Of a stretch of DNA of 64,000 nucleotides, positions 21,542-64,000 are shown in pieces. The DNA is from Desulfobacterales bacterium. Lineage in GTDB: Bacteria > Desulfobacterota > Desulfobacteria > Desulfobacterales > Desulfosalsimonadaceae. The position numbers and the translations under genes were made by a program. The stretch lies in NCBI GenBank assembly GCA_007134875.1, contig SLJY01000109.1, forward strand, positions 6,555 through 70,554, given 5' to 3'. The notes beneath the pieces are model-generated. The model saw only the letters and a list, made by a program, of their open reading frames with translations, had not been told where the DNA came from and made no database searches. Every line of letters starts with the position of its first letter. Position 1 is the stretch's first letter.

Positions 21542-21554
21542 AAACCGTGGGGAA

Positions 21555-43560: not shown

Positions 43561-43658
43561 AATTTCGTAAAAATCAATCAATTTTCAACATAAAACCAAC
43601 GAAGGCGCATTTTTTAAATCAACCCTGTCATCCGCCTGTTTTGATGAGTAAAATTGAT

Positions 43659-43778: not shown

Positions 43779-43863
43779 CGTAACAAATCCCCCGGGTAAA
43801 TGACGTTTGTTATGCGCTTCCTCCGTCAGCACATCCTGTGTACCTGACGTAGAAATTGGCGGG

Positions 43864-46465: not shown

Positions 46466-47764
46466 ATGGTGATTCAAGCGGATACCGGCAGTTCATCGGA
46501 CACCGGGGAAGAGATTTATGAGCCCGCATTCGTGGCGCGGCAGCCGGTTTTTGATAAAAATTTAAGAATATGGGGCTACGAGCTGCTCTTTCGAAACAGC
46601 CGCGATGTCAATCGTGCCGAGATCGCCGATTCAGGGGTGGCCACGGCAAGCGTGATCATCGACGGCATCGCGCAGGCACGGGAGGGGCTCCCGCATGACA
46701 AGGCGCTGTTGATCAACTTTCCGAGAGCGCTGCTGCTCGATGACACCCCGCTTCTATTGCCTGAAAGCTGTATCATCGAGATTCTCGAGGATGTCAGGCC
46801 GGATCCGGAGGTGCTGGAAAAGCTCGAAGCGATAGGCGAGGACCGCATGCTCGCGGTGGACGATTTCACCGGGCGCACGGCGTATGAACCGGGATATGAC
46901 AGGATCCTCGAGCTCTCGGACATCATCAAGGTGGATGTCCTTTCCATGGCCGAAGAACGGGTGCGCGAGGTGATCGGGGGGCTTGCTCCTTTCGGGAAGA
47001 GCCTGCTGGCGGAAAAAGTTGAAACCCGGGAGGTGTTCCGCCAGACGTCTCGCCTGGGGTTTTCGCTGTTTCAGGGTTTTTTTTTCAGCCGCCCCGAAAT
47101 CGTCAAGGGCCGGAAGCTCTCGTCGAACCAGATCTCGAGGCTGCGCCTCATGCAGGAACTGGAGCAGCAGGAATTCGACCCCAAGGCGCTGGCCGCGGTT
47201 GTCGAATCGGATGTGTCGCTTAGCTACCGGCTTCTCCGGTATATCAATTCGCCCGGCATCGGTCTTTTGGCCCAGGTTCGTTCGATCCGGCACGCTGTTT
47301 CCCTTTTGGGGGAAAGGCGGATCCGGCAGTGGCTGCGCATCCTGATCATGGCGGATCTGAATTCCACGGACCGGGGCATCGAATTGCTCCGCATGAGTTC
47401 CATGCGGGGGTACATGCTTCAACTCCTTGCGGAATCGTATCCGTCTCCCATGGATCCCCATTCCATGTTCCTGACCGGCCTGTTCTCCGGTCTGGACGCC
47501 ATCCTGGATCAGCCCATGGGCCGGATCATGCACGACCTCCCCCTGGATGACCTGATCAAGAAAGCCCTCATGGGCGAGGCCGATGAGCCCGCCAGGTATC
47601 TTCAACTGGCCAAGGCCCTGGAAAAAGGCGACTGGCAGGGACTCTACCGCCTTTCCACCGACCTGGGCTTCCAAACCGACATTCTTGCCGGCCTTCACAT
47701 GAGAACAATGCGTTGGGGAGACGCCCTTCTCTCCGCATCCCTTTCATCCGGGGAAAAAGAATAG
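46466..47764 (+). CDS. EAL + HDOD domain signalling protein (YuxH-like)
   Basis: 432 aa with FVARQPVFDKNLRIWGYELLFR (ELL variant of EAL). The C-terminal HDOD-like half contains SLSYRLLRYINSP...IRHAVSLLGERRIRQW. Confidence 0.8.
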   Translation: MVIQADTGSSSDTGEEIYEPAFVARQPVFDKNLRIWGYELLFRNSRDVNRAEIADSGVATASVIIDGIAQAREGLPHDKALLINFPRALLLDDTPLLLPESCIIEILEDVRPDPEVLEKLEAIGEDRMLAVDDFTGRTAYEPGYDRILELSDIIKVDVLSMAEERVREVIGGLAPFGKSLLAEKVETREVFRQTSRLGFSLFQGFFFSRPEIVKGRKLSSNQISRLRLMQELEQQEFDPKALAAVVESDVSLSYRLLRYINSPGIGLLAQVRSIRHAVSLLGERRIRQWLRILIMADLNSTDRGIELLRMSSMRGYMLQLLAESYPSPMDPHSMFLTGLFSGLDAILDQPMGRIMHDLPLDDLIKKALMGEADEPARYLQLAKALEKGDWQGLYRLSTDLGFQTDILAGLHMRTMRWGDALLSASLSSGEKE

Positions 47765-47817
47765 CATCTTGAGAAGCCGGAAGCCCATGGCAATTTAAAG
47801 CCTAATTGTGATGCACC

Positions 47818-47956
47818 CATAAAAAGTCGCGATCCGGCGGCTTTGTAAAAAGTTCAAGACCATGGCTTGCTTAATTTCAAAGAATGCAGAGTGCTTGGCG
47901 TGCGTGAAATTCCGCGGAGTTGCGCGTAACACAGATATTGGACTTTTTACGGAGTC
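47818..47956. repeat. MITE-like repeat copy
   Basis: ...CGGCTTTGTAAAAAGTTCAAGACC ... GCGCGTAACACAGATATTGGACTTTTTACGGAGTC. Confidence 0.85.
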
Positions 47957-48034
47957 TTCATCTATAATTTAATGATATAAAAGGATATAATAACATATAC
48001 GGGTATTGGTGATTGTTGTTTTTTCATTTTGAGA

Positions 48035-51369: not shown

Positions 51370-52331
51370 CCGATACACGTTTTACGGAAACGGATAATAT
51401 AACGGGCGATATCGGCGCCGATTTTGACAAGTCCCGCCGTTCCTACCGGAAAATCATGCGCGATCTGTTGGTTCAGATCATTGAAAAGCAGGACTTCCCG
51501 GTTGCGGCCAGGCTCTTTTCCATGGCCTGCTTCACGTTTGAACTCGACTCCTTCGTTCACACCCACGGCTCGGCGTTGTGGGGGGAAAAATTCAACCTGG
51601 AAGTACACCGGGTGGCCGGAAACGGTTATGAAGCGCTGTGGTGCCAGGATTTCCCGGATACCGGCGCCATTGATCCGGTTCATCTCGAACGCCCCGTGGC
51701 CATGATCCTTTCTTTGTTTCAGGGAACGAAGGACCGGTGCCGGCCTGAATTTTTCCGGATGCTCGGGTCATCCATAGCCCTGCTTCAATCGGATGAACCG
51801 CCGGAGGACGCATCCGGTCCGGAACCATACATATCCTGCGCGCCGCCGCCGCATGCTTCCCGCCGGGAATCCTTTGCCCATTCCCCCGAAGCGCCCTCGA
51901 ATCCGCTTTCGCGCGGCGGGGGCCTTGCAGGCCTGTCGGATGAAAACCGGCGTGCGCTCACCATGGGGTTCTGCCGGCGCCGGAAGCGGCTTCACGAACG
52001 CCTGTTTACTGAACTTGAAACCGAAACCCGCCATTTCTGCGAGCGGATTCTCGGCTACAGGGATTTCGAGCGCTTCGAAAACCTGTTCGAATTCGTGCAG
52101 CGAATGGTGATCGACACGGCGCTCTTCCGGTTTTTCCTGATCAGTTCCCCCGCGATGGAAAAGATTGCGTCGAGCAAAACGGAGGCCACCGGAGCCGATT
52201 CCCGAATGGTCGCGGAGGATATTGCCGACACCATCGTGCGAGAGGAAAAAGCGGTCCTCGATCTGCAAAAAGTCCTGATCGAACAGCAGATGCGGAGCCT
52301 TGCCGAGACGACCCTGTTGATCCGCATCTGA
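51366..52331 (+). CDS. hypothetical protein, translationally coupled to the HD-GYP gene
   Basis: 321 aa with an ATGA overlap with the upstream stop. I recognise no motif in it. Confidence 0.55.
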   Translation: MTDTRFTETDNITGDIGADFDKSRRSYRKIMRDLLVQIIEKQDFPVAARLFSMACFTFELDSFVHTHGSALWGEKFNLEVHRVAGNGYEALWCQDFPDTGAIDPVHLERPVAMILSLFQGTKDRCRPEFFRMLGSSIALLQSDEPPEDASGPEPYISCAPPPHASRRESFAHSPEAPSNPLSRGGGLAGLSDENRRALTMGFCRRRKRLHERLFTELETETRHFCERILGYRDFERFENLFEFVQRMVIDTALFRFFLISSPAMEKIASSKTEATGADSRMVAEDIADTIVREEKAVLDLQKVLIEQQMRSLAETTLLIRI

Positions 52332-52404
52332 AATATTTGCCGGGGACCGGTTTTCCTGAACTTCCTGCTTTCCCCGCTGCCGTTTTTTTGCTATCAACAC
52401 GGCT

Positions 52405-52974
52405 ATGACGATTGCACCCGAACAGAACCCCGAACCGATATTTCCCGAGGACCTGCTGGAAGCGGCCGACCCGTCGCCGGCCGCGGATGCGGCAAGGACA
52501 TGGTACGTGGCCCGTGTGAAAAGCCGGCGTGAAAAGGCCCTGGCATCCTTTTTGTACAGGCGCTCCATCGGCTATTACCTTCCCCTGATGAAACGCCGCC
52601 AATCCGGCAGCAGCCGTATCCGCTACAGCCTGGTACCCGTATTTCCGGGCTACGTCTTTGTATTCGCGGACATCGAGGAGCGCTACAGCGCGTTTACATC
52701 CAACCATGTAAGCCGGATGATCGAAGTCAAAGACCCGGAAACCCTCCTGCAGGAACTTGGCCGGATCCACCGGACCCTGTCCGCCGGGCAGCCGGTTTAC
52801 CCGGTGGAATTCGTGAGCGTCGGCCGCCGCGTCCGTGTCAAATCCGGCCCCATGAAGGACGTGGAAGGGATCGTTGTCCGCAAGGACAAGAAATTCCGGC
52901 TTGTTTTAAACGTCACCACCATCATGCAGTCCGTATCCATCCAGATCGACGCCGACATGGTGGAGCCGGTATAG
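52405..52974 (+). CDS. NusG paralog (NGN + KOW; RfaH/UpxY-like specialised antiterminator)
   Basis: 189 aa. NGN segment WYVARVKSRREKALASFL...LVPVFPGYVFV and KOW segment GRRVRVKSGPMKDVEGIVV. Confidence 0.75.
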   Translation: MTIAPEQNPEPIFPEDLLEAADPSPAADAARTWYVARVKSRREKALASFLYRRSIGYYLPLMKRRQSGSSRIRYSLVPVFPGYVFVFADIEERYSAFTSNHVSRMIEVKDPETLLQELGRIHRTLSAGQPVYPVEFVSVGRRVRVKSGPMKDVEGIVVRKDKKFRLVLNVTTIMQSVSIQIDADMVEPV

Positions 52975-52990
52975 GGGATCATCGGCGCGG

Positions 52991-53015
52991 GTATTGTACT
53001 TTTTACGAAGCCGTC
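52991..53015. repeat. solo MITE terminal repeat
   Basis: TATTGTACTTTTTACGAAGCCGTCA. Confidence 0.6.
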
Positions 53016-53064
53016 AACCTGAAACCTGAAATGCTCACCACACCCGATCAAGGAACAGCATGTG

Positions 53065-54777
53065 ATGGATGAAAAACGCTTTGCAGCCCATGGCGGCCCG
53101 CTTGTAAACCTGATGGTGGATGAACAACGGGCCGCGCTGTTAAAAGAGATTTCCCTCAACCTCCGGGATGTCATCTTAAGCGAACGCAATCTCTGCGACC
53201 TGGAGCTGCTGGCCATCGGCGCTTTTTCGCCCCTCGCCGGCTTCATGACCCGCCCGGACTACGAGTCGGTTCTGGACCGGATGCGCCTCCAGGACAACAC
53301 CCTCTGGCCGGTACCCGTGTGCCTGGATGTCTCCGGTAAAACGGCTAACCAGTTGGAAGCCGGACAGTCCGTGGCCCTGCGCGACGGGGAGGGATTCCTC
53401 CTTGCCGTTATGCATATCGGGGACATGTGGCCGGTGAACCGTGAAAAAGAAGCCGACATGATCTACGAAACCCGGGATCTGTCACATCCCGGGGTCCATT
53501 ACCTATATAAGACATCCGGCGATTATTACATCGGCGGCCAGTTGGAGGTGATCAACCTGCCCGTTCATTTCGATTTCAGGCAGATCCGCCTCCAACCCGA
53601 CGAGATTCGCGCCCAGTACCGGAAGCTTGGCTGGCAGCGGATCGTGGGGTTTCAGACCCGCAATCCCGTTTACCGGCCCCAGTTTGAAATGACCATCCAA
53701 GCCATGCGCCGCGCAAAGGCCAATCTGCTGATCCTGTCCGTGGTCGGCATGACCAAAAAGGATGACTTCGATCATTTCATCCGGGTCCGCTGCAATCGTA
53801 AAGTGGCGGAGCATTACCCGCCCGGCGCCGCCGTCCTGGCGCTTTTGCCCCTGGCGGTTCGCCTGTCCGGCCCCCGGGATGCGGTATTCGACGCCATTAT
53901 CGCGAAAAACTACGGCTGCACCCATTTTATAATCGGCCATGACCATGCATCCCCCGGCCCGGACAGCAGCGGCAACCTCTTTTATCCCGTTGCCCGCGCC
54001 AAGGAAATCGCCGGGTCCCTTGCCGATGAAATCGGCATCGACGTCGTCCTTTTCGAGGAGATGGTCTATCTCCCCTTCGAAGACGAATACCGCAGCGTCG
54101 ATCATGTTCCTGCCGGCGCCCAGACCATATCCCTTTCCGGATCGGATATCCGGCGGCGCATCCGCGACGGCAAAAACATTCCGGACTGGGCGGTCTTCCC
54201 GGAGGTGACCGCCGAGCTCCGCAAGGCCTATCCCCCGCCTTCCATTCAGGGGTTCACCGTGTTTCTGACGGGCCTTTCCGGGGCCGGCAAATCGACCATC
54301 GCCAAGGTGCTTTACTCCAAATTCCTGGAAATCGGCGACCGCCCCGTAACCCTGCTCGATGGCGACATCGTCCGCAGAAACCTGTCATCGGAGCTGTCCT
54401 TTTCCAGGGAGCACCGGGATTTGAACGTGCTGCGCATCGGGTTCGTGGCCAGTGAAATAACAAAGAACCGGGGGGTGGCCATCTGCGCGCCCATCGCCCC
54501 CTACGAGAGCAGCCGCCGAGAGGTCCGCTCCGTCATCGAGGCGTACGGCGGATTTGTCGAGGTCCACGTGGCCACCCCCATCGAAGAGTGCGAAAAGCGC
54601 GACCGCAAAGGCATGTACGCCAAGGCCCGCGCCGGGCTCATCACCGGCTTCACCGGCGTGGACGACCCCTACGAAGTGCCCCGCAATCCCGAGCTCAGCA
54701 TCGATACCACCGCCATCACCCCCGAGGAGGCGGCTCAGGAAGTTATGCTGTTTCTGAGCAAGCAGGGATTTAATTAA
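53065..54777 (+). CDS. ATP-sulfurylase-like domain fused to adenylylsulfate (APS) kinase
   Basis: ORF 53062..54777. The N-terminal domain is FQTRNPVYRPQFEM ... GCTHFIIGHDHASPG and the C-terminal domain is GLSGAGKSTIA, LLDGDIVRRNL, EVHVATPIEECEKRDRKGMYAKAR. Confidence 0.85.
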   Translation: MDEKRFAAHGGPLVNLMVDEQRAALLKEISLNLRDVILSERNLCDLELLAIGAFSPLAGFMTRPDYESVLDRMRLQDNTLWPVPVCLDVSGKTANQLEAGQSVALRDGEGFLLAVMHIGDMWPVNREKEADMIYETRDLSHPGVHYLYKTSGDYYIGGQLEVINLPVHFDFRQIRLQPDEIRAQYRKLGWQRIVGFQTRNPVYRPQFEMTIQAMRRAKANLLILSVVGMTKKDDFDHFIRVRCNRKVAEHYPPGAAVLALLPLAVRLSGPRDAVFDAIIAKNYGCTHFIIGHDHASPGPDSSGNLFYPVARAKEIAGSLADEIGIDVVLFEEMVYLPFEDEYRSVDHVPAGAQTISLSGSDIRRRIRDGKNIPDWAVFPEVTAELRKAYPPPSIQGFTVFLTGLSGAGKSTIAKVLYSKFLEIGDRPVTLLDGDIVRRNLSSELSFSREHRDLNVLRIGFVASEITKNRGVAICAPIAPYESSRREVRSVIEAYGGFVEVHVATPIEECEKRDRKGMYAKARAGLITGFTGVDDPYEVPRNPELSIDTTAITPEEAAQEVMLFLSKQGFN

Positions 54778-54896
54778 AGGGTCAATTAAGGGTCAGAGTG
54801 GCATTTCATCGTCAACGGAAATCGGGATGTCCGATAGCGTAGCGACTTTTTGCGGGTGCATCAGGGTTTGCCGAATATACACAAGGAATTTGAGGC

Positions 54897-54925
54897 TTGA
54901 CAAACGCACGGGCAGAAAGTAAAAT
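54897..54925 (+). promoter_or_regulatory. sigma-70-type promoter
   Basis: TTGACA(54897-54902)-N17-TAAAAT(54920-54925). Confidence 0.6.
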
Positions 54926-54940
54926 AAAATGTTTATACTG

Positions 54941-54960
54941 TTTTATAAGCGGCAGGTTAA
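54941..54960 (+). promoter_or_regulatory. shared early-leader element TTTTATAAGCGGCAGGTTAA (ops-like)
   Basis: Matches 63721-63740 at 17 of 20 positions. Both lie ~10-25 nt downstream of a sigma-70-type -10 box. The core GCGGCAG compares with the RfaH ops core GGCGGTAG. Confidence 0.4.
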
Positions 54961-55012
54961 TCGCGTTTTACGATTGTTATCATCGGAAAGGCATGTTACG
55001 CAAAAGGCCAAA

Positions 55013-55062
55013 AAAGCGGTTTTCGTTCAGGCGCTAATGCAGGGGGAATGGAACGGACGATG
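55013..55062 (+). promoter_or_regulatory. conserved leader cassette, copy d
   Basis: AAAGCGGTTTTCGTTCAGGCGCT ... GCAGGGGGAA ... ATG 55048/55060 of an 18-22-codon mini-ORF. Confidence 0.45.
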
Positions 55063-55112
55063 CATCATCTCATCACCATAGGACTGCCCGGTACGGCGGG
55101 GAAGGCTGCGGC

Positions 55113-55358
55113 ATGATTAATATCGGGTTGATCATTGCCGCCGGGGTTCTCGTCATCTATCTGGTATTGGGACCTATCGTCATTATGGGCATCTATTCCT
55201 TTCTGGACCGGATGGCCGAAAAGGCGGGAGAGCAGGAAAAAACGGATTCGACGCCCCGGGGCAAAAAAGATCCGGCGTTGTGGACTTCCAGGGATGTCCG
55301 GCGCTATATGCTAAAACACCGGCGGTTTCGTTCCGGCGATGGCGATTATAGATTATAA
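55113..55358 (+). CDS. small membrane protein (81 aa)
   Basis: N-terminal TM MINIGLIIAAGVLVIYLVLGPIVIMGIYSFL and a basic C-terminus. Its ATG overlaps the mini-ORF stop (ATGA). Confidence 0.45.
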   Translation: MINIGLIIAAGVLVIYLVLGPIVIMGIYSFLDRMAEKAGEQEKTDSTPRGKKDPALWTSRDVRRYMLKHRRFRSGDGDYRL

Positions 55359-55389
55359 TGGATGAGTGCAGCAGGTAAAAAAACCGCTT

Positions 55390-57066
55390 ATGCGAGATTT
55401 CTTAAAAAAGTGGAAAAAATATTTTGTATTTGTCGCCCTGCTGAGTTGTTTCATCAACATTCTTCAACTCACCTTCGCCTTTTACATGTTCACGATCTAT
55501 CGCAACATCGTTGCGAGTCATCACGAGCCGTCCCTGTATACAATTACCGTCATCGCGATCTACGCCCTTGTGAGCCTGGGCTTTTTCAACTACCTGCGCA
55601 CGCGCCTGCTCAACACGGCGGGCGTGGACCTCGACCAGTCCATGGGCTCGTCGGTATTCCGGCACGTAATCAGAATGTTTTCCATTCCCGCGGCCAACCG
55701 GTACACGCAGGGCGTCAGCGACCTGACCACGGTTCGCAATTATTTCAATAACCCGGGCCTCTATGCCCTGTTCGACGCCCCGTGGGCGCCGCTGTACCTG
55801 CTTTTGATCTATTTTTTCCATCCGGTTCTGGGGCTCGTGGCCACCGCCGGGGCGGTTTTGATTTTTATTCTGAGCCTCCTGCAGGACAGGCTGACACGCT
55901 CTCGTCTGGGCCGTGCCAATGCGAACTACGCGCGCAACCAGCGCATGGTCGATACCGCGCTCCGGAACGCCGAGACGATCAACGCCATGGGTATGGCTTC
56001 CGACATCAGCGGGCGCTGGGAGCGTTCCAACGAGTCGGTCATCGCGGACCAGACCATCGCCAGCCGTTACGCCGGCGCCCTGCAGAGCATGACCCGGCCT
56101 GTTCAGATCATGATGCAGGTGCTCATCTACGGCATTGGCGCGTATTACGCCATTACCGCCATGTTCGATGTCGGACTGATGGTGGCCTCGGCGATTATCA
56201 TGGGCCAGGCGGTCGGCCCCATTATGCGGGCCATGGGTGCATGGCGGTTCACCGTCCAGGCCGGAGCGGCCTACGCCCGACTCAACCGGTTTTTAGGCGC
56301 CATTTCCCGCCAGGGCGAAAAAATGACCCTTCCGCCGCCGGAAGGGCGCATCGAATCGCGCAACATCATGCTCAGAATCGGCGAGACCCGCCTGCTTGAA
56401 AATGTATCCTTTGCCCTTTCTCCCGGCGATATAATGGGTGTGGTCGGGCCTTCCGGGGCGGGAAAAAGCACCCTCTGCCGGATCGTTACGGGCGCATGGC
56501 CCGTTACGGCGGGTGAAATCCGTCTTGACGGCGTGGACTTGTTTTATTGGGATCAGGACGCCCTGGGCCGCCACGTTGGCTATCTTCCCCAGGAGGTGGA
56601 GCTTTTCCGCGCTTCGATAGCCGAAAATATCGCCCGCATGGGAGACGTGGACGAAGAAGCGGTGCGGGGGGCGGCTGAGGCTGCCGGTATCCGTCAGTGG
56701 ATCGAGTCGCTTCCGGACGGCATGCACGCAAAACTCTATGGTTCGGACGGCATCGCCCCGTCCGGCGGCCAGCGTCAGCGTATCGGGCTAGCACGCGCCC
56801 TTTACGGCGGCGCCCGGGTGCTGGTGCTTGACGAGCCCAATTCGAACCTGGATGCGGAAGGCGAAGCGGCCCTGACGGCCTTTCTGCGGAAAATCCGCGA
56901 AGGTCGTTTCGCAACCTGCATCATTGTAACGCACAAGCAGGAAATCCTCCTGTCGGCCGATAAAATCCTGGTCCTGGCCGACGGAAAGACCACTGCTTTC
57001 GGGCCGAGGGATAAGGTGTTCCGCCATCTTGCGGTCGCGCAATCTGCCGGCAGGAAAGCGGTGTAG
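55390..57066 (+). CDS. type I secretion ABC transporter (permease/ATPase, PrtD/HasD type, no C39 peptidase domain), paralog 1
   Basis: ORF 55366..57066 (GTG). ATG 55390 (MRDFLKKWKKYF) aligns with the N-terminus of paralog 2 (MREFLRKWMKFF). GPSGAGKSTL, SGGQRQRIGLARAL, VLVLDEPNSNLD. Confidence 0.85.
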   Translation: MRDFLKKWKKYFVFVALLSCFINILQLTFAFYMFTIYRNIVASHHEPSLYTITVIAIYALVSLGFFNYLRTRLLNTAGVDLDQSMGSSVFRHVIRMFSIPAANRYTQGVSDLTTVRNYFNNPGLYALFDAPWAPLYLLLIYFFHPVLGLVATAGAVLIFILSLLQDRLTRSRLGRANANYARNQRMVDTALRNAETINAMGMASDISGRWERSNESVIADQTIASRYAGALQSMTRPVQIMMQVLIYGIGAYYAITAMFDVGLMVASAIIMGQAVGPIMRAMGAWRFTVQAGAAYARLNRFLGAISRQGEKMTLPPPEGRIESRNIMLRIGETRLLENVSFALSPGDIMGVVGPSGAGKSTLCRIVTGAWPVTAGEIRLDGVDLFYWDQDALGRHVGYLPQEVELFRASIAENIARMGDVDEEAVRGAAEAAGIRQWIESLPDGMHAKLYGSDGIAPSGGQRQRIGLARALYGGARVLVLDEPNSNLDAEGEAALTAFLRKIREGRFATCIIVTHKQEILLSADKILVLADGKTTAFGPRDKVFRHLAVAQSAGRKAV

Positions 57067-57216
57067 ACCCATTGACCGATGCGGGCTGCACCGCTGTATT
57101 TGCAAATCTTATAAATAGTGCCCGGAGGAAAACCGGGGTTTTTCGTCAAGTCAAGAACCGTGAAAATTTTAACAGCAGGAATACTTCGCGTATTTTGAGG
57201 GTTAAAATTTTGATGC

Positions 57217-57381
57217 ACTCGTAAAGGTCGCGATCTGACGGCTTTGTAAAAAGTTCAGGATTAAGGCTTGCGCGATTTCGAAGAATGCAATGTACTTGGC
57301 GTACGTGCATGTTTACAAGGCGTAAGCCGCAAATTCTGAAAAATCGCGCGTAACGCAGATATTGGACTTTTTACGAAGCCG
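57217..57381. repeat. MITE-like repeat copy
   Basis: Nearly collinear with 11618-11761: CGGCTTTGTAAAAAGTTCAGGATTAAGGCTTGCGCGATTTCGAAGAATGCA ... GATATTGGACTTTTTACGAAGCCG. Confidence 0.85.
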
Positions 57382-57414
57382 TCAAATTTGAGCCGGACGC
57401 AAAAAAGGGCGGAA

Positions 57415-57462
57415 AAGACGGTTTTCGGTCAGGCACTAGTTAATCAAGGATGGTCCATTTTG
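57415..57462 (+). promoter_or_regulatory. conserved leader cassette, copy e
   Basis: AAGACGGTTTTCGGTCAGGCACT ... AATCAAGGA, ending at the proposed TTG start 57460 of the TolC-like gene. Confidence 0.45.
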
Positions 57463-58869
57463 GTACGAAAACGATTGTTTGGCAGAGCACTGCTGATTTT
57501 TGCCGGTTGCTGCCTGTGGCTGTTTGTCGCACTACCCGTAGGAGCTGAAACGGCTGCCGAAGACGGCAACGATGCGGGCGTCGAGGCCTACACCCTGGAG
57601 CAGGCCATCGATCGCGCTCTTTCGGTCAATCCCCGCATTCAGGGGGCCCGCTCGGAGATCGACAAGGCCGATTCCGATATTGCGCTGCGCCGTGGTGAGT
57701 ATTTCCCCACGCTCAGCGCCCAATCATACATCGAGCGGATCGATAACATCCGGGCGCGGGGGCAGGAAGACCCGGATTATCTCGACCAGCAGATCATGGG
57801 CGTTACCTTTCGCCTGTCCCAACCCCTGTTTGCCGGTATGACCATATTTAATTCCCACCAGAAGTCGATTCTGGACAGGGCCCGCATCGATGCCTGGAGC
57901 CGCCAGCAGAATCATGACCTGGCCCTGGAGGTCCGATTGCATTTTCTGGAATTGTACAAGGCGCGCGAGGATTCCAAAAGTTTCCGCGACGCGGTGCGGC
58001 GGCTGGAAACCGGCGTGGAGGCGGCGGAGGCTTTTCACGAGCGCCGCCTGATGCCGTATACGGAGGTGCTCCAGGCATACGTGGATCTCGCCGAGGCCCG
58101 GCAGCAGCTCAGCCAGGCCGAAAACCTCGTGGAGACCACCAAGGTCCGGCTCAACATCCTGCTGGGTTTTTCGGTGCACCGGGATATTTCCTACCTGGGC
58201 GATCTTGAGCGGGGCGATCCCCTTTCCGAGTCCTTCCGGGAGCTGCTGGAATACGCCTACCGGCACCGGCCTGAGCTGGAAGTGGCCCAAAAGAGCGTTG
58301 AAATGGCCGAAAAGGACCGGAATATCGCTCGCGGCCGCTACCTGCCGGAGATCAATGCCACGGTGGACTACCACATCCGGGATGTCGACTACGATGAGCG
58401 GGGGGAGCAATTCGGTCAGACGATTGATCGCGACCGCCGGAACTACTACTGGACCGCCGGTATCCGCCTCAACTGGGAGTTCGGTTTAGGCGGGCAGCAG
58501 ATCCACCGGCATTCCAAAGCGAACCACGAGCTTCAGCGCCTCCGTCATAACCGGGAGCAGGCCCGCAACGAGGTAACCGGTGAAGTGCGGACCTACTTCA
58601 TGAACATCCGGGAGGCCGCCGACCGCATACGGACCATGGAGGCGGCGATTGAACACGCCCGGCAGGGCTACAGCCGGGCGGAAAGCCGCTTCGATCTCCG
58701 CATGGGAACCATATCGGAGCTTCTGGATGCCCAGGCGCGCCTGAGCCGCACCGAGGCCGGCTACAACGAGGCGGTGGCGGACTACTTATCCAACCGGGCA
58801 AGGCTCTACCATGCCATGGGCCGCGATAAGCGGCTGCTGGCGGAGGCAACGGGGTCTGAAAACGATTGA
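57460..58869 (+). CDS. TolC-family outer membrane efflux protein
   Basis: ORF 57388..58869 (its TTG lies inside the MITE). TTG 57460 is preferred for its AAGGA SD and the signal peptide VRKRLFGRALLIFAGCCLWLFVALPVGA. Two TolC-type repeats. Confidence 0.8.
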   Translation: MVRKRLFGRALLIFAGCCLWLFVALPVGAETAAEDGNDAGVEAYTLEQAIDRALSVNPRIQGARSEIDKADSDIALRRGEYFPTLSAQSYIERIDNIRARGQEDPDYLDQQIMGVTFRLSQPLFAGMTIFNSHQKSILDRARIDAWSRQQNHDLALEVRLHFLELYKAREDSKSFRDAVRRLETGVEAAEAFHERRLMPYTEVLQAYVDLAEARQQLSQAENLVETTKVRLNILLGFSVHRDISYLGDLERGDPLSESFRELLEYAYRHRPELEVAQKSVEMAEKDRNIARGRYLPEINATVDYHIRDVDYDERGEQFGQTIDRDRRNYYWTAGIRLNWEFGLGGQQIHRHSKANHELQRLRHNREQARNEVTGEVRTYFMNIREAADRIRTMEAAIEHARQGYSRAESRFDLRMGTISELLDAQARLSRTEAGYNEAVADYLSNRARLYHAMGRDKRLLAEATGSEND

Positions 58870-58958
58870 ACGGCCGTTTTCGCCAAGGGTCCGCATAAAC
58901 GTTCATACTACCCAATTCATCCCCGGAACCGATTGTTCGGGGATCAGCAGGAGTCAAT

Positions 58959-60644
58959 ATGCGCGAGTTTCTGAGAAAGTGGATGAAGTTTTTCTGGATA
59001 GCGGGTTTTTTCAGCCTGTTTATCAACCTGCTTTACCTGACGTTTCCCATCTACATGCTGGCTGTCTACGAGCGCGTGCTATACAGCTATTCTATGTCGA
59101 CGCTCACCACGCTGACCATCATGGCGGCCACGGCGCTCATTGTGCTGGGCGGCCTTGACTTTCTCAGGTCCCGGCTGCTGATCCACGTCGGCGTTGATAT
59201 GGACAATACGCTTTCCCGTCCGGTATTTTCCGAAATGCTCAACGACCGCTGCCGCATCGGCGGGCTGGGATACACCGAGGGGCTCAGGGACGTCAATACC
59301 CTGCGCAATTTTTTCTCCGGCAATGCCGTATTCGCGATCTTCGATGCCCCCTGGACGCCGCTTTATATCCTGGTGATGTTTTTCATGCACCCCGTGCTTG
59401 GATATTTCGCCATTGCCGCGGCGGTGATTCTTTTTCTTCTGGCGCTTTTCCAGGAGATCCTGACCCGCCGTAAGATGGATCGGTCCGGCGCCATGGAATC
59501 CGTATCGCACCAGTTCGCCAACACCTGCATGCGAAATGCCGAAGTGATCAGCGCGATGGGCATGACGCCCGGGGTTATCAACCGATGGCGGGAAACCGGC
59601 GACGAGGCCCTTGCGCTGCGCAACGAGGCTAATTCCGTGTCCGGGGCCATGAGCGCCGCCACCACGAGTTTTCGCTCCGCCATGCAGGTTCTGGTTTTCG
59701 GATTGGGTGCTTACCTGGTTTTGCAGAACCAGTCCACCCCGGGCATCATTATCGCCGCTTCCATCATTATGCGGCAGGCCCTCGGCCCGGTGGAAAAGAT
59801 TATCGGAAGCTGGCGTCAGACGGTGGAAGCCCGCGCGGCATACCGCCGGCTGGACGAGCTGATTCAGGCCGCGCCCGCAGCCGAAGAAATGGAGCTGCCC
59901 GAACCTGCCGGCCGCCTGGAAGCCGAGGGCGCCTCGCTATCCCTGGAAGGCAAGCCCATCCTCCAGAACATTGCATTTGGCATCGACGCCGGCTCGATGT
60001 TGGGCTTGATCGGTCCTTCCGGTGCGGGAAAGACAACGCTCTGCCGGCTGATCCTGGGACTGTGGCCTGCCATGGGCGGCAAGATACGGCTAGACAGCTA
60101 CGATGTCCATGCTTGGAATCAGCAGGAGCTGGGCGCCTATATTGGCTATCTGCCACAGGATCCGGAGCTTTTTCCCGGCACCGTCAGCGAAAACATCGCC
60201 CGGATGGGGGATGTGGACCCTGAAAAGGTCGTAGCCGCCGCGCGGACCGCCGGAATCCATGAGATGGTGCTCAAGCTGCCCAAAGGCTATGATACCTGGG
60301 TGGGTGACGACGGCGTGCGTTTGTCCGGCGGCCAGCGGCAGCGGGTCGCACTGGCCCGGGCGCTTTACGGCGACCCGAGGCTCGTGGTTCTGGACGAACC
60401 CAACTCCAACCTGGACGATGCCGGCGAAAAAGCCCTCATGGAGGCCCTGGAGCGGCTGCGCGAGAAAAAGACGACTGTTGTGATTGTCACCCACAAGCCG
60501 GCATTGCTTTCCGGCGTGGACAATATCCTGATGCTCAAGGACGGCCGTGTCGCGCATTTCGGGCCGAGAGACGAGGTTTTCAGGAAGCTGGCCTCGCAGC
60601 AGCAGCAGGAGAGAGGGCACAATCCCGGGGCAGGCGGGCGGTGA
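58959..60644 (+). CDS. type I secretion ABC transporter (permease/ATPase), paralog 2
   Basis: 561 aa with GPSGAGKTTL, LSGGQRQRVALARAL, LVVLDEPNSNLD, VVIVTHK. Confidence 0.88.
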   Translation: MREFLRKWMKFFWIAGFFSLFINLLYLTFPIYMLAVYERVLYSYSMSTLTTLTIMAATALIVLGGLDFLRSRLLIHVGVDMDNTLSRPVFSEMLNDRCRIGGLGYTEGLRDVNTLRNFFSGNAVFAIFDAPWTPLYILVMFFMHPVLGYFAIAAAVILFLLALFQEILTRRKMDRSGAMESVSHQFANTCMRNAEVISAMGMTPGVINRWRETGDEALALRNEANSVSGAMSAATTSFRSAMQVLVFGLGAYLVLQNQSTPGIIIAASIIMRQALGPVEKIIGSWRQTVEARAAYRRLDELIQAAPAAEEMELPEPAGRLEAEGASLSLEGKPILQNIAFGIDAGSMLGLIGPSGAGKTTLCRLILGLWPAMGGKIRLDSYDVHAWNQQELGAYIGYLPQDPELFPGTVSENIARMGDVDPEKVVAAARTAGIHEMVLKLPKGYDTWVGDDGVRLSGGQRQRVALARALYGDPRLVVLDEPNSNLDDAGEKALMEALERLREKKTTVVIVTHKPALLSGVDNILMLKDGRVAHFGPRDEVFRKLASQQQQERGHNPGAGGR

Positions 60645-60713
60645 TGACCGTTTGAGCGTCTGCTGCAGGAAGCATTCAAAAGAATCAATATTGTAACGCA
60701 AGGTGGAACCATT

Positions 60714-62045
60714 ATGGCAGAAACAGAGAAACCGGCGCAGGAAAAAAGCCTGCGGTCCAACCCGAAGCCGCTTATCATTGCCGGCTTCGCAGTGATTCTG
60801 GTGTTTTTCGGGGGTATAGCGGCCTGGTCGGCCTTTCTTCCCTTTTCCGGGGCGGTGATTGCAACAGGCGTGGTCAAGGTCTCCCATGAGCGTCAAACCG
60901 TCCAGCACCTCGAAGGCGGGATCGTTGAAGACATTTTCGTCCGGGAAGGGGATTCCGTTGATTCCGGCGATGTGCTCATGCGCCTTCGACGCCCGGAAAC
61001 CGATGCCCAGGTATCCATGATCCGCAGCCAGATCCGGGCCCGAACGGCCCAGGCGGCCCGTCTCCGGGCGGAAAGCCGGATGGCGGACGAAATCCAGTGG
61101 CCGGAGTCGATTCTTTCCCGTCAGGATGATGATCCCGAAGTAGCCGACGTGATGGAAATGGAGGGCGAAATCTTTACATCCCGGCGCAATACCCTCAATG
61201 GCCGGATTTCCCTGCACGAATCACAGGTTGCCCAGTTGCAGGAGCAGGTAATGGGAATGCAGGAGGAGTATGAGGCCCAGAAGGAAATCGTGGAAACCCT
61301 GGAAGAGGAAATCGAGGCCAAGCAGTCCCTCTACGAGGCGGACCATATCGACCGGACCGAAATTCTGGAGTTGACCCGCCGCCTGGCCGAGCACCGAGGC
61401 CGGGCCGGACGGCTCCGCCAGGACATCGCGGAGGCCCGCCAGAAAAAGGAGGAGCTGCGCCTCCAGATCGTAAACCTCCGGGATGACTACGTGGAAGAGG
61501 CTTTTACCCAATTGGGGCGCGTGCAGGACGATATTTACGAGCTCAACGACAGGCTGCTTCCCCAGCTGGACGCCCAGAGCCGGCTGACGCTCCGTGCGCC
61601 CATTGCCGGCGAGGTCATCAACATGAAAGTCCACTCCCGAACTACCGGCGTCATCCAGCCGGGGCAGGAAATTCTGGATATCGTTCCCAGGGAGGCCGAG
61701 CTGATCGTGGAGGCCCGTGTTCAGCCCGACGATATTACCAATATCATGAAGGGCCAGTCCGTCCGCGTGCAGATAACGCCCTTCAACCGGCGGACCACGC
61801 CGCCGGTCAACGGGGTGATCGAGCATGTTTCCGGCGACCATGTTACCCGCGAGACGGCCCGCGGCGAGGAGAAATATTACGTCACCCACATCCGCATCGA
61901 CGAGGCGGAACTCAATGAAGCGGGTATTTATCTTTCTCCCGGCATGCCGGCCGTAAGCTACATCGAAACCGAGGAGCGCACGATACTGGGGTATCTCCTT
62001 GATCCGATCATCGAGATGATGGATCGTTCCCTCCGGGAGCCCTAA
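60714..62045 (+). CDS. HlyD-family type I secretion membrane fusion protein
   Basis: 443 aa with an N-terminal TM, GVVKVSHERQTVQHLEGGIV, a long coiled coil, and LRAPIAGEVINMKVH. Confidence 0.88.
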   Translation: MAETEKPAQEKSLRSNPKPLIIAGFAVILVFFGGIAAWSAFLPFSGAVIATGVVKVSHERQTVQHLEGGIVEDIFVREGDSVDSGDVLMRLRRPETDAQVSMIRSQIRARTAQAARLRAESRMADEIQWPESILSRQDDDPEVADVMEMEGEIFTSRRNTLNGRISLHESQVAQLQEQVMGMQEEYEAQKEIVETLEEEIEAKQSLYEADHIDRTEILELTRRLAEHRGRAGRLRQDIAEARQKKEELRLQIVNLRDDYVEEAFTQLGRVQDDIYELNDRLLPQLDAQSRLTLRAPIAGEVINMKVHSRTTGVIQPGQEILDIVPREAELIVEARVQPDDITNIMKGQSVRVQITPFNRRTTPPVNGVIEHVSGDHVTRETARGEEKYYVTHIRIDEAELNEAGIYLSPGMPAVSYIETEERTILGYLLDPIIEMMDRSLREP

Positions 62046-63588
62046 GCGCGGGGTTCCTTTCGATCGCCCGTCGCAAATGCTCGATCATGGTCAGGGTGTG
62101 GGGGGTAACGGGCGCCCTGGAAAGGTCCTTGATCAGCAATATTTCCCCCAACTCGCGTTCCCCGGCCAGCAAAGGGAGCCGGAGCCGGAGCAGGGGGCGG
62201 CAGCCGTCGGCGTTTTTTCCCGCCTGATGGGCGCCTGCCCCGGGTTCCGTCGTCCGGAACCCGTTTCGCGACCATGCCTGCCGGATTCCGCCGGTTTCGC
62301 CGGTGCTTCCGGCAATGGCTTTTCCGGCGGACTTCCCGTCGCCTGTGCCGATGCGGATCTCGGCAAAATCCATATCCATCTCTTCAAGCGCGCGGCAGAT
62401 GTTTTCCCACATCGCCTGCATATCGGGAGAACCGGTCACCGCCACCTGGAGGTTCAAAAAACGCCTGCGGCGCGGCGCAACCCCGGTGACAAAGGAAAAA
62501 TCTCCCAGCCAGCTCCGGAATTTTTCACCGTCGATGTAGCTGAAATATCCCATCACCTTCAAAAAGGCAAAAATCAGTACGCCGATGCCCAGCAGGAGCA
62601 CGAACAGGCCGAATCGTTCGCTTTTTACGTGCATCAGCGCCAGCGAATAGATCCCGATGGCCAGCGTCAGGCAATAGAGAAGCAGCAGCGCCTTTCTGCT
62701 GGAAAAGCCTATTTTGAGAAGGTGGTGGTGGATATGCCCGCAGTCTGCTTCCATGGGGTTTCTTCCCAAAACGACCCGTCGGATGGGCGAAAAGACGGCC
62801 TCGAACACGGGCAGGCTCATGGCCAGAAGCGGAATGAGCAGCGCCGCGCCCACCTGTCCTTTAACGGACCCCATAATCGAAAAAGCCGCGATGCAGTAGC
62901 CCAGAAAATAGCTGCCGCTGTCGCCCAGAAACAATTTGCCGCCGTTTTCCCGGAAGTTGAAAGGGAGAAAGCCGGCGATTGATCCCGCCAAAAGGATAAA
63001 AAGTCCGGCAAGGGGTAGTTGCCCGGTGGCTGTGAGAAAGACGCCCATTACCACGCAGGCGAACAGCGTGATGCCCGAGGCCAGGCCGTCGAGTCCGTCG
63101 GCCAGGTTCACGGCGTTGACCAGCAGCAGAAACCAGAAAACGGTAAGCGGCAGGTTGATCCACGGATTGGCGGAGATGTCGATATCGAAGGGAAGGGCGA
63201 TGAATGCCCCGATCACAATCCCGCCGGCGTATGCGGATAGCGCCGCAATAACCTGCAGGGCCAGCTTGGGCCACGGCCCCAGCCCCCACACATCGTCTAC
63301 GAACCCGGTGACGAAGCAGGTGAAGGCGCCTGCCAGGAAAAACAAAAGCGCGCCGTCTTCGGTAAGCGGGCTCCGGATATCGGGCCAGAACAGGGCGGTG
63401 GCGGTTATCGCCGCCAGAAAGGAAAGAAAAATCCCAAGCCCGCCGATTCGCACGGCGGTTTCCAGATGAAGCTTTCTGCTGCCCGGAGCGTCGGTGGCGC
63501 CCAGCCGCATCCCTATGCGCCGGACGGCCGGGCAGAGGACGAGCGAAACGGTAAAGGCGATGAAAAATGGTATCAGCAGTATACTCAT
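62008..63588 (-). CDS. WecA/MraY-family polyprenyl-phosphate sugar-1-phosphate transferase with ~190-aa C-terminal extension
   Basis: 526 aa. The N-terminal ~330 aa are polytopic with DAPGSRKLHLETAVRIGGLGIF and NAVNLADGLDGLA. The C-terminal soluble domain is unrecognised. Converges on and overlaps the HlyD gene by 38 nt. Confidence 0.8.
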   Translation of the reverse strand: MSILLIPFFIAFTVSLVLCPAVRRIGMRLGATDAPGSRKLHLETAVRIGGLGIFLSFLAAITATALFWPDIRSPLTEDGALLFFLAGAFTCFVTGFVDDVWGLGPWPKLALQVIAALSAYAGGIVIGAFIALPFDIDISANPWINLPLTVFWFLLLVNAVNLADGLDGLASGITLFACVVMGVFLTATGQLPLAGLFILLAGSIAGFLPFNFRENGGKLFLGDSGSYFLGYCIAAFSIMGSVKGQVGAALLIPLLAMSLPVFEAVFSPIRRVVLGRNPMEADCGHIHHHLLKIGFSSRKALLLLYCLTLAIGIYSLALMHVKSERFGLFVLLLGIGVLIFAFLKVMGYFSYIDGEKFRSWLGDFSFVTGVAPRRRRFLNLQVAVTGSPDMQAMWENICRALEEMDMDFAEIRIGTGDGKSAGKAIAGSTGETGGIRQAWSRNGFRTTEPGAGAHQAGKNADGCRPLLRLRLPLLAGERELGEILLIKDLSRAPVTPHTLTMIEHLRRAIERNPALRAPGGNDPSSR

Positions 63589-63682
63589 ACTCTATCCGGC
63601 AGTGCGTTTCCCGCACGGTTGAGTTGTTGGCGCGTTTTGCCTTCCTGCCGTTTATCCGATGGAAAGCCGGTTGAATTGTTGC

Positions 63683-63711
63683 TTGATTTCAGGGCCCGGA
63701 ACGTTTATATA
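63683..63711 (+). promoter_or_regulatory. sigma-70-type promoter
   Basis: TTGATT-N17-TATATA, followed by the shared leader element at 63721. Confidence 0.45.
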
Positions 63712-63720
63712 TGATCCTTT

Positions 63721-63740
63721 ATTTATAAGCGGAAGGTAAA
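63721..63740 (+). promoter_or_regulatory. shared early-leader element ATTTATAAGCGGAAGGTAAA (ops-like)
   Basis: Matches 54941-54960 at 17 of 20 positions, in the same position relative to a -10 box. Confidence 0.4.
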
Positions 63741-63960
63741 ATTCAAGAAAATATATATTAAACAGGATCGTTTTGCAATGCCGCTGCAGTGTATTTTTTT
63801 TCGGGGGCCGGATGGCGATGCACGCCCGGTGCATGGCGGGTTTTCGGAAGGACGGGCTGCCGCTGGCTTTCGGCCCGGTTCATCCGCCCGGCGCTTCGAT
63901 GCGCCGGAGCAAAAGCCCCATGAGCCCGAACATAAACCGGGGCCGGAACATAAAACGGCT

Positions 63961-64000
63961 ATGCGGGTTCTCCACGTATTCAAGACCAATTACCTGCAGC
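63961..64000 (+). CDS. possible start of a glycosyltransferase gene running off the window
   Basis: ATG 63961 gives MRVLHVFKTNYLQ, resembling the N-termini of GT-B glycosyltransferases (M[RK][IV]LH[VF]xKT). The frame is open from 63778 to the window end. Only 13 codons are visible. Confidence 0.3.
   Translation, partial: MRVLHVFKTNYLQ

What the first reader, a model, noticed from the sequence alone, without database searches (positions are those of the whole stretch)
54897..54960. Two sigma-70-type promoters followed by the same ops-like 20-nt leader element (54941 and 63721)
TTGACA-N17-TAAAAT (54897-54925) is followed by TTTTATAAGCGGCAGGTTAA. TTGATT-N17-TATATA (63683-63711) is followed by ATTTATAAGCGGAAGGTAAA. 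The two elements are 17/20 identical, on the same strand, and at about the same distance (~+6 to +25) from the predicted start sites. Both are on the non-template strand for + strand genes (the T1SS unit and the putative GT gene at 63961). The core GCGG(C/A)AG resembles the RfaH ops core GGCGGTAG, which is read on the non-template strand in the early leader. A NusG paralog is encoded 2 kb upstream. This could be the recruitment site of that paralog.
Basis: seen in the sequence. Interest (0 to 1): 0.7.

Follow-up and report, generated by a model that had tools for sequence, protein, structure and literature searches.

The report
Two promoters sharing unconserved leader motif
Two ordinary promoters, one before a secretion operon and one before a surface-sugar operon, share a 20-base stretch just after their predicted start sites, but close relatives with the same genes and the same NusG-like regulator lack it, so it is probably not that regulator's docking site.

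Summary
The sequence observation is correct. TTGACA-N17-TAAAAT (54897-54925) and TTGATT-N17-TATATA (63683-63711) are each followed by a 20-mer that is 17/20 identical on the same strand. The gene calls also hold. A NusG paralog nearest the UpxY family lies at 52405-52974, followed by a PAPS-synthesis gene and a type I secretion operon. After copy 2 comes a GT4-GT4-Wzm-Wzt glycan operon.

Both promoters are conserved in related genomes. The 20-mer is not.
- A relative with an 88%-identical paralog and the same gene order on one contig has a transposon-like repeat end in its place (5/20).
- A 92% relative keeps 14/20, no better than the flanks.
- In a near-identical relative, 222 nt occupy the site of copy 2's 5' half, so its halves (9/11 and 8/9) lie 77 nt apart.

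The element also lacks the pause signature and hairpin of RfaH ops.

About 40 relatives of this paralog carry a different, strongly conserved ops-like pause element (GGRCGRAGYNYG) next to the gene. The window has none.

The similarity is unlikely for these two leaders taken alone (P = 0.003). It is expected about 0.55 times among all intergenic DNA of the window.

Verdict: real promoters, but the ops reading is not supported. Low interest. The element found in relatives deserves separate follow-up.

The parts
52405..52974 (+). NusG specialised paralog (189 aa), nearest the UpxY family
   Evidence: Pfam NusG NGN 1.7e-09 plus a weak KOW match. NCBIfam UpxY NF033644 scores 89.2 bits (cut-off 100); RfaH scores 48.7 and LoaP 48.8. 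185 homologues were found, mostly Desulfobacterales MAGs.
53062..54777 (+). Bifunctional sulfate adenylyltransferase / APS kinase (PAPS synthesis)
   Evidence: NCBIfam NF004040 scores 819 bits, above its cut-off. The linkage of the paralog with Sat/CysC is kept in a 74% relative, L090.
54897..54925 (+). Sigma-70-type promoter P1 of the type I secretion operon
   Evidence: Matches 11/12 of the consensus. The -35 hexamer is 6/6 conserved, and T1, A2 and T6 of the -10 are conserved in L217, L216 and L215 while the flanks diverge.
54941..54960 (+). Copy 1 of the shared 20-mer, TTTTATAAGCGGCAGGTTAA, at about +10 to +29
   Evidence: Sequence read. It is 14/20 conserved in L217 and 5/20 in L216/L215, no better than the flanks.
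55017..55036 (+). Copy of a short sense-oriented repeat (CGGTTTTCGTTCAGGCGCTA) in the same leader
   Evidence: Six window copies, all on the + strand 20-75 nt upstream of start codons of + strand genes. Function unknown.
55113..62045 (+). Type I secretion operon: 81-aa ORF, PrtD-type ABC, TolC-like OMP, second PrtD-type ABC, HlyD-type adaptor
   Evidence: Pfam and NCBIfam hits. The gene order is conserved in L215-L218.
57121..57137 (+). Terminator-like hairpin plus T-run after the first ABC gene
   Evidence: Found by the consensus scan. It is followed by a MITE-like repeat copy at 57166-57395.
62008..63588 (-). WecA/MraY-family phosphoglycosyl transferase, divergent from the glycan operon
   Evidence: Pfam Glycos_transf_4 2.7e-36.
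63683..63711 (+). Sigma-70-type promoter P2 of the glycan operon
   Evidence: TTGATT-N17-TATATA read. L215 has TTGATT-N17-TATAGT with diverged flanks. It is identical in L227.
63721..63740 (+). Copy 2 of the shared 20-mer, ATTTATAAGCGGAAGGTAAA, at about +4 to +23
   Evidence: Sequence read. In L227, 222 nt stand where the window has TTTATTTATAAG (63720-63731), and sequence matching the two halves (9/11 and 8/9) lies 77 nt apart.
63750..63778 (-). Promoter-like site facing WecA (TTGCAA-N17-TATATT)
   Evidence: Matches 9/12 of the consensus. If it is active, copy 2 lies between two face-to-face start sites, so the strand argument at site 2 is ambiguous.
63961..64000 (+). Start of the GT4 glycosyltransferase, first gene of the GT4-GT4-Wzm-Wzt-methyltransferase-GT operon
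   Evidence: L008 shows the operon beyond the window end. Homologues of about 380 aa align from this start.

Best explanation
Two genuine housekeeping-sigma (sigma-70-type) promoters drive a type I secretion operon and an ABC-transporter-dependent glycan operon. These operons flank a locus that also encodes a UpxY-like NusG paralog and a PAPS synthase. The 20-nt stretch the two share lies in the initially transcribed region. It is restricted to one lineage and shows no detectable purifying selection. It is best read as a by-product of rapid sequence turnover in these promoter-proximal leaders, which are hot spots for small repeats and indels, or as coincidence. It is not a docking site for the NusG paralog. 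Shown: the promoter hexamers are conserved, the 20-mer is not, and it lacks the defining features of ops. Inferred: the start sites, and the absence of function.
For: The promoter hexamers and their spacing are conserved in L217, L216, L215 and L227 while the flanks diverge. Copy 1 is 14/20 in L217, where neighbouring segments score 13/15, 12/20 and 11/20. It is 5/20 in L216/L215, where nhmmer identifies the end of a MITE-like repeat at that place (E = 1e-7). L216 keeps the paralog at 88% identity (146 residues held) and the same gene order. For copy 2 in L227, the flanks are about 91-100% identical but 222 nt stand where the window has TTTATTTATAAG, and sequence matching the two halves lies 77 nt apart. 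The 222 nt hold a 30-nt inverted-repeat element also seen in L012 and L013. In L215 the two orthologous leaders share nothing (best 13/20; 98 of 100 shuffles do as well). No motif is shared among non-coding DNA near the paralog in nine members of its subclade. Across all intergenic DNA of the window, 0.55 such pairs are expected by chance. There is no Rfam match, JUMPstart included, and neither leader has unusual RNA structure (z = +1.6 and -1.1).
Against: If the two leaders are chosen a priori, 17/20 is reached in only 0.3% of dinucleotide shuffles, and 0.04% within 60 nt of the -10. Both copies are on the same strand just after the promoters. Both operons are of the kinds that RfaH controls (established knowledge of the RfaH regulon). 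The L215 contig ends 266 nt beyond WecA, so absence of copy 2 there is not proven.
Confidence: 0.55

Rival explanations
1. The 20-mer is an ops-like loading site. RNA polymerase exposes it on the non-template strand early in the leader, the NusG paralog encoded 2 kb upstream binds there, and it makes transcription of both long operons processive.
For: The similarity has P = 0.003 for the two leaders taken a priori. Both copies are on the same strand in early-leader positions. A NusG paralog is encoded nearby. The targets are a T1SS and a Wzm/Wzt glycan operon. A terminator-like hairpin lies inside the T1SS operon. The paralog's subclade differs from motif-bearing relatives at the residue next to the lysine that aligns with RfaH K10 (V instead of T in 8 of 9), so a changed specificity is conceivable.
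Against: The motif is absent from the orthologous leader of a relative with an 88%-identical paralog and the same gene order. It is no better conserved than its flanks in L217, and its two halves are apart in L227. The base equivalent to ops T6 differs between the two copies. Aligned to ops, the pause positions read T|A and A|A instead of Y|G (sequence). Only one Watson-Crick pair of the ops hairpin is possible. The family-wide element of relatives (GGRCGRAGYNYG) is not matched (nhmmer E > 10). The KSRREKALA helix is the same in relatives with and without that element.
Confidence: 0.12
2. The 20-mer is a young, lineage-specific cis-element that co-regulates the two operons by another route. 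It could be an operator for a repressor sitting just downstream of the start site. Alternatively, its -10-like TATAAG could cause a sigma-70-dependent promoter-proximal pause.
For: The similarity between the two initially transcribed regions is non-random. TATAAG matches 5/6 of the -10 consensus in both copies, at about +13 and +7 (sequence). Operators often overlap +1 to +20 (general knowledge).
Against: There is no dyad symmetry. The register relative to the -10 differs by 6 nt. TATAAG is not kept in L217 (TGAAAG) or L216. No candidate regulator was identified. Conservation is lacking, as described above.
Confidence: 0.2
3. Both copies are remnants of one small repeated or mobile sequence that landed downstream of both promoters.
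For: These leaders are hot spots for repeats. L216 has a MITE end in leader 1, L227 has an inverted-repeat element in leader 2, and L215 has short 'D10' repeats and a MITE in leader 2. The window holds at least two intergenic repeat families. In L227, the sequence aligned to the 5' half of copy 2 (TTTTTTTATAAA) includes the first bases of the right arm of that inverted-repeat element.
Against: nhmmer with the MITE profile does not match either copy (E > 10). No third copy exists in the 64 kb window or in the ~9.5 kb beyond the window end held in L008. The similarity does not extend beyond 20 nt.
Confidence: 0.1

Closest known systems
RfaH and its ops element (within JUMPStart) of Enterobacteria
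   Same: Both involve a NusG paralog and leaders of long cell-surface and T1SS operons. The element is on the non-template strand. The core GCGG(C/A)AG resembles GCGGTAG.
   Different: Only 7/10 and 6/10 of the specified ops positions match. The T6 equivalent is variable. T11-G12 is absent, so there is no Y-1 G+1 pause signature. C9 is replaced by G, which loses the second hairpin pair. There is no JUMPstart hit in Rfam. The element is not conserved in orthologous leaders. The paralog keeps the equivalents of K10 and R23 but not those of H20, Q24 or R73 (alignment to an RfaH sequence recalled from memory).
UpxY and opsX of Bacteroides fragilis (Saba et al. 2024, PMC11685472)
   Same: The paralog scores best against the UpxY family model. 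Its neighbours are polysaccharide loci. opsX sites are leader elements read on non-template and upstream duplex DNA.
   Different: UpxY is the first gene of its operon and opsX lies in the leader upstream of it. opsX sites are about 40-nt multipartite pause sites with pause hairpins. Here the paralog gene is separate, and no pause consensus or hairpin is evident. No UpxZ-like partner was looked for.
Conserved element next to the genes of this paralog's own relatives (found here; unnamed; not in Rfam)
   Same: It belongs to the same protein family (35-52% identity), lies on the same strand as the gene, and sits in non-coding leaders of polysaccharide operons.
   Different: That element is ..CCGAnnGGGRCGGAGTGYGC.. 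with invariant GG at -11/-10 and YG at -1/+1, plus a covarying mini-hairpin R-C[GRA]G-Y. It lies 11-400 nt from the paralog gene. The window's 20-mers do not match its profile and lie 1.97 and 10.7 kb from the gene.
Sigma-70-dependent promoter-proximal pause elements (the lambda PR'/Q type)
   Same: There is a -10-like hexamer (TATAAG) in the initially transcribed region of both promoters.
   Different: The register differs by 6 nt between the two copies, the hexamer is not conserved in relatives, and no Q-like factor or binding element was identified.

Membership tests
RfaH-type ops | 12-nt consensus GGCGGTAGnnTG on the non-template strand | tested here: not met
   The best registers are AGCGGCAGGTTA (7 of 10 specified positions) and AGCGGAAGGTAA (6 of 10). 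The T6 equivalent is C or A.
RfaH-type ops | Elemental pause signature (G-10, Y-1, G+1) | tested here: not met
   In the ops register, positions -1/+1 are T|A at site 1 and A|A at site 2 (sequence). Pausing itself cannot be tested with these tools.
RfaH-type ops | Non-template hairpin with pairs G2:C9 and C3:G8 | tested here: not met
   The C9 equivalent is G in both copies, so only C:G can form (sequence).
RfaH-type ops | Conserved in orthologous leaders of relatives that keep the factor | tested here: not met
   L216 scores 5/20 with an 88%-identical paralog on the same contig. L217 scores 14/20, equal to its flanks. In L227 the two halves of copy 2 are not contiguous.
RfaH-type ops | Match to the Rfam JUMPstart model | tested here: not met
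   No hit at E <= 5 in 52000-64000.
RfaH-type ops | Lies in the transcribed leader of long surface or secretion operons | tested here: inconclusive
   The operon types are verified. Transcription of the element is inferred only from conserved promoter hexamers.
RfaH-type ops | Several copies genome-wide, confined to operon leaders | tested here: inconclusive
   There are two copies in 64 kb.
UpxY / opsX | Factor belongs to the UpxY family | tested here: inconclusive
   NF033644 scores 89.2 bits. It is the best family but falls below the curated cut-off of 100.
UpxY / opsX | Factor gene is first in its target operon, with the site in the leader upstream of it | tested here: not met
   The paralog gene follows two unrelated genes and precedes Sat/CysC. 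The 20-mers lie downstream of Sat/CysC and 10.7 kb away.
UpxY / opsX | Pause hairpin just upstream of the site | tested here: not met
   Only 4-10 nt of transcript would precede the element. The leader folds are not unusual.
Element of the paralog's own relatives (GGRCGRAGYNYG) | Match to the sequence profile built from 14 instances | tested here: not met
   nhmmer --max finds 40 hits in related loci, all on the gene's strand. In the window there is only E = 7.4, inside a coding region at 7264. Looser regular expressions hit only coding DNA.
Element of the paralog's own relatives (GGRCGRAGYNYG) | Within about 400 nt of the paralog gene on the same strand | tested here: not met
   The 20-mers lie 1967 and 10747 nt after the gene's end. 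Most profile hits in relatives lie 11-400 nt from the gene.
Sigma-70-type promoter | -35 and -10 hexamers with 16-18 nt spacing | tested here: met
   P1 matches 11/12 with a 17-nt spacer. P2 is TTGATT-N17-TATATA.
Sigma-70-type promoter | Hexamers conserved in orthologous intergenic regions while flanks diverge | tested here: met
   The -35 is 6/6 in every relative. For the -10, TA...T is kept at P1, and L215 has TATAGT at P2.
Sigma-70-type promoter | Mapped transcription start | not testable with these tools
   This needs 5' RACE or dRNA-seq.

The most novel reading that the evidence does not exclude
The subclade of NusG paralogs to which this one belongs has lost the family-wide ops-like pause element found next to the genes of its relatives. 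In this one lineage it has acquired a new, very young loading sequence (TTTATAAGCGGMAGGTWAA) in the first 30 nt of two target leaders. That would be a snapshot of a NusG paralog re-targeting itself.
Probability: 0.1. Interest if true: 0.6.

Novelty: new member of a known kind. Interest (0 to 1): 0.22.

Why it matters
If the 20-mer were a loading site, it would be the first recruitment signal defined for a NusG paralog in Desulfobacterota. It would tie secretion, sulfation and glycan export into one antitermination regulon. The evidence points the other way: these are ordinary promoters whose early leaders turn over quickly. The useful outcome is a negative control and a yardstick. Relatives of this paralog do carry a conserved, strand-specific element that fits the elemental pause consensus and forms an ops-like mini-hairpin. 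No Rfam family matched it, and two literature searches turned up nothing like it. That element is a much better candidate for how this protein family is recruited, and it shows what a real site looks like.

Tried and rejected
1. Collection scan for the motif. TTTATAAGCGGNAGGTNA was scanned in genome contigs. The one 'Deltaproteobacteria' hit is inside a coding region. The result is uninformative, and the source genome was never reached.

2. The motif near orthologues of the paralog. It was looked for in 80 metagenome loci and not found. Hits with 2-3 mismatches were coding, including the antisense of the paralog's own YYLPL codons.

3. The 20-mers as degenerate pieces of the MITE-like repeat. 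nhmmer gives no match (E > 10).

4. The 20-mers as reverse complements of the short 'D10' repeat, which occupies the site-2 position in L215. Only 9-11 of 20 positions match, which is chance level (by hand).

5. Apparent look-alikes downstream of the paralog in L011/L012, L013 and L016 (GCGAAGGTCAAAA, CCGGCAGGAAAATC, GAAGGTAAAAATTC). Ungapped best matches are at shuffle level, and no subclade-wide motif was found.

6. A Shine-Dalgarno reading of AGGT. No start codon lies at a usable distance (sequence).

7. Structured leader RNA. There are no Rfam hits and the folding z-scores are unremarkable.

8. A stem enclosing the core of the relatives' element. Its register is not consistent across groups. 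Only the 2-bp mini-hairpin covaries.

Full report
**Observation.** Both sites are in the sequence exactly as described.
- Site 1: TTGACA-N17-TAAAAT at 54897-54925, then TTTTATAAGCGGCAGGTTAA at 54941-54960.
- Site 2: TTGATT-N17-TATATA at 63683-63711, then ATTTATAAGCGGAAGGTAAA at 63721-63740.
- The 20-mers are 17/20 identical on the same strand. Similarity does not extend beyond the 20-mer and the -35 region.
- The consensus scan scores promoter 1 at 11/12. It does not list promoter 2, whose -10 ends in A.
- With a start 7 nt after each -10, the 20-mers begin near +10 and +4, so the register differs by 6 nt.
- No third copy exists in the window, even with mismatches allowed.

**Context.** The window comes from a Desulfobacterales (Desulfosalsimonas-like) soda-lake MAG. 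The gene order is as follows.
- HD-GYP protein, then an unknown 321-aa protein.
- A NusG paralog at 52405-52974. Its best family is UpxY at 89 bits, below the cut-off of 100. RfaH and LoaP score about 49.
- A bifunctional Sat/CysC enzyme (PAPS synthesis).
- Site 1, then an 81-aa ORF, a PrtD-type ABC transporter, TolC, a second PrtD-type ABC transporter and HlyD.
- A WecA-like gene on the minus strand, then site 2.
- Fetching DNA beyond the window end shows that site 2 heads a GT4-GT4-Wzm-Wzt-methyltransferase-GT operon of more than 9 kb.
- Homologues of the first GT4 support the start at 63961.

**Is the similarity more than chance?** The answer depends on how the question is framed.
- Shuffling all 7.8 kb of intergenic DNA in the window gives 0.55 same-strand 17/20 pairs on average.
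- The real intergenic DNA holds 35 such pairs, nearly all from genuine repeat families.
- If the two leaders are chosen a priori, 17/20 is reached in 0.3% of dinucleotide shuffles. Within 60 nt of the -10 it is 0.04%.
- So the match is suggestive, but it cannot carry the argument alone.

**Conservation: the decisive test.** Orthologous loci were recovered through homologues of the first ABC gene and the first GT4 gene.
- Site 1, promoter. The -35 hexamer is 6/6 conserved in all relatives. T1, A2 and T6 of the -10 are kept.
- Site 1, L217 (92% ABC identity). The 20-mer is 14/20 (CTTTGAAAGCGGTGGATTAA). Neighbouring segments score 13/15, 12/20 and 11/20, so there is no excess conservation.
- Site 1, L216/L215 (86%). 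The 20-mer is 5/20, and nhmmer identifies the 3' end of a MITE-like repeat at exactly that place (E = 1e-7).
- L216 carries the paralog (88% identical over the 146 residues on the contig), Sat/CysC, the leader and the T1SS on one contig.
- Site 2, L227 (81% GT4, from the same sample). The intergenic region is about 91-100% identical, promoter included. However, 222 nt stand where the window has TTTATTTATAAG. Sequence matching the two halves of the 20-mer lies 77 nt apart. GCGG becomes CCGA.
- Those 222 nt hold a 30-nt inverted-repeat element that recurs in L012 and L013.
- Site 2, L215. The promoter is conserved (TTGATT-N17-TATAGT), but what follows is two copies of a short repeat and then a MITE.
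- The L215 contig ends 266 nt beyond WecA, so loss of copy 2 there is not proven.
- In L215 the two orthologous leaders share nothing (best 13/20; 98 of 100 shuffles do as well).

**Does it look like ops?**
- Only GCGG.AG matches.
- The base equivalent to T6, which RfaH reads specifically, is the position that differs between the two copies.
- The C9 equivalent is G, so the second pair of the ops hairpin is lost.
- In the ops register the pause positions read T|A and A|A instead of Y|G.
- Rfam finds neither JUMPstart nor anything else.
- The leaders show no unusual RNA structure.
- The paralog keeps the equivalents of RfaH K10 and R23, but not those of H20, Q24 or R73. This rests on an alignment to an RfaH sequence recalled from memory.

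**What a real site for this protein family looks like.** While reading the flanks of orthologues, I found a conserved element next to the paralog gene in many relatives at 35-52% identity.
- Examples are tGCCCCcgaaaGGGGCGGAGTGTGCCC and GTGCACCGAMRGGGACGGAGTSYGCGC.
- A profile built from 14 instances finds 40 hits in 583 kb of related loci. All are on the gene's strand, and most lie 11-400 nt upstream or downstream of the gene.
- In 859 kb of unrelated control loci it finds 3 weak hits on mixed strands.
- In a 27-sequence alignment the invariant columns are A27, G31, G32, C34, G35, A37, G38 and G42, and column 41 is always a pyrimidine.
- That gives GG at -11/-10 and YG at -1/+1, which is the elemental pause consensus (established knowledge). 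The frame is the same as E. coli ops (GGCGGTAGCGT|G).
- Columns 33 and 39 covary (AU 18, GC 5, GU 2, other 2; 0 of 500 shuffles reach the score). They flank an invariant C34:G38 pair. This gives a mini-hairpin R-C[GRA]G-Y, one base shorter than the ops hairpin.
- A 10-locus Rfam scan found no matching family. The two literature searches I ran and the papers I read showed nothing like it.
- It fits the extended opsX logic shown for Bacteroides UpxY (PMC11685472).
- The window has no copy. The best profile hit is E = 7.4 inside a coding region, and looser patterns hit only coding DNA.
- The paralog's own subclade (at least 54% identity; nine loci) shows neither this element nor any other shared motif near the gene.
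- The KSRREKALA helix, which aligns with the ops-contacting helix of RfaH, is invariant in relatives with and without the element. The one consistent difference is V instead of T just before the lysine, in 8 of 9 subclade members.

**Conclusion.** The promoters are real and ordinary. The shared 20-mer is real as sequence, but four points count against a loading-site role:
- it is confined to one lineage;
- it sits in leaders that are visibly churned by small repeats and indels;
- it lacks every defining feature of ops that could be tested;
- it differs from the element that this protein family actually conserves.

| Reading | Probability |
|---|---|
| No selected function (turnover by-product or coincidence) | about 0.55 |
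| Young lineage-specific regulatory site of another kind | about 0.2 |
| Loading site for the NusG paralog | about 0.12 |
| Remnant of a repeated or mobile sequence | about 0.1 |

The main gaps are that the source genome could not be scanned, leader 2 of the L215-type genome is incomplete, and nothing here measures transcription.

Noticed in passing
Related loci, e.g. L017:2469-2500, L022:9651-9680, L031:5403-5432, L061:952-983 (not in the window): There is a conserved, strand-specific element next to the genes of this NusG paralog's relatives..CCGAnnGGGRCGGAGTGYGC... It has invariant GG at -11/-10 and YG at -1/+1 (the elemental pause consensus) and a covarying mini-hairpin R-C[GRA]G-Y that resembles E. 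coli ops. The profile finds 40 hits in 80 related loci, all on the gene's strand, against 3 weak hits in 118 control loci. A 10-locus Rfam scan found no matching family. It is a strong candidate for the recruitment site of this protein family.
   Followed up: partly
window 11565-11776, 21306-21552, 43644-43790 (-), 47762-47970, 52986-53029 (3' end only), 57166-57395: A MITE-like intergenic repeat family of about 190-230 nt has terminal inverted repeats (TGACGGCTTCGTAAAAAGT..GCGTTACGCGC). One copy sits inside the T1SS operon between the first ABC gene and TolC. A fragment sits between the NusG paralog and Sat/CysC. Copies also occur in L096, L215, L216 and L217.
   Followed up: partly
window 8178, 38359, 43868, 45874, 55017, 57419 (all +); L215 9479 and 9511 (-): A short repeat, AAGACGGTTTTCGTTCAGsCrCTA, lies upstream of genes in the sense orientation (window copies 20-75 nt before start codons). 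The genes are two small ORFs in the flagellar region, a sigma-54-type response regulator, CheW, the T1SS leader and TolC, plus WecA in L215 (about 150 nt upstream). Its GG-N10-GC spacing recalls sigma-54 promoters, but the rest fits poorly. Function unknown.
   Followed up: partly
window 52389-52407: An extended -10-like TGcTATCAA ends 7-8 nt before the ATG of the NusG paralog gene. The TTTTTTGCTATCA stretch is conserved in L096, and also in L090 where the hexamer reads TATCAG. The mRNA may therefore be leaderless and have its own promoter.
   Followed up: no
window 52592 (- strand), inside the NusG paralog gene: The antisense of the conserved codons for YYLPL reads CAGGGGAAGGTAAT and closely resembles the 20-mer core. 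The same holds in many orthologues. It is explained by coding constraint and is not a regulatory site.
   Followed up: yes
window 57121-57137: A bidirectional terminator-like hairpin (CCCGGAGGAAAACCGGG plus a T-run) lies right after the first ABC gene, inside the apparent T1SS operon. A comparable inverted repeat follows the same gene in L215/L216 (seen in the flanks printed; not analysed further). Either TolC has its own promoter or read-through is regulated.
   Followed up: no
L218:10746-15818 and window 53062-54777: In a 67% relative the same T1SS operon is followed by rml genes, a Wzx-type flippase and two sulfotransferases. Together with the PAPS synthase linked to the paralog here and in L090, this points to a sulfated surface glycan.
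   Followed up: no
window 63750-63778 (- strand): A promoter-like site, TTGCAA-N17-TATATT, faces WecA and would start its mRNA near 63743. Copy 2 of the 20-mer would then lie between two face-to-face start sites.
   Followed up: no
window 15499-15810: There is a perfect-to-96% tandem duplication of 156 nt inside the 579-aa ORF at 14980-16719.
   Followed up: no
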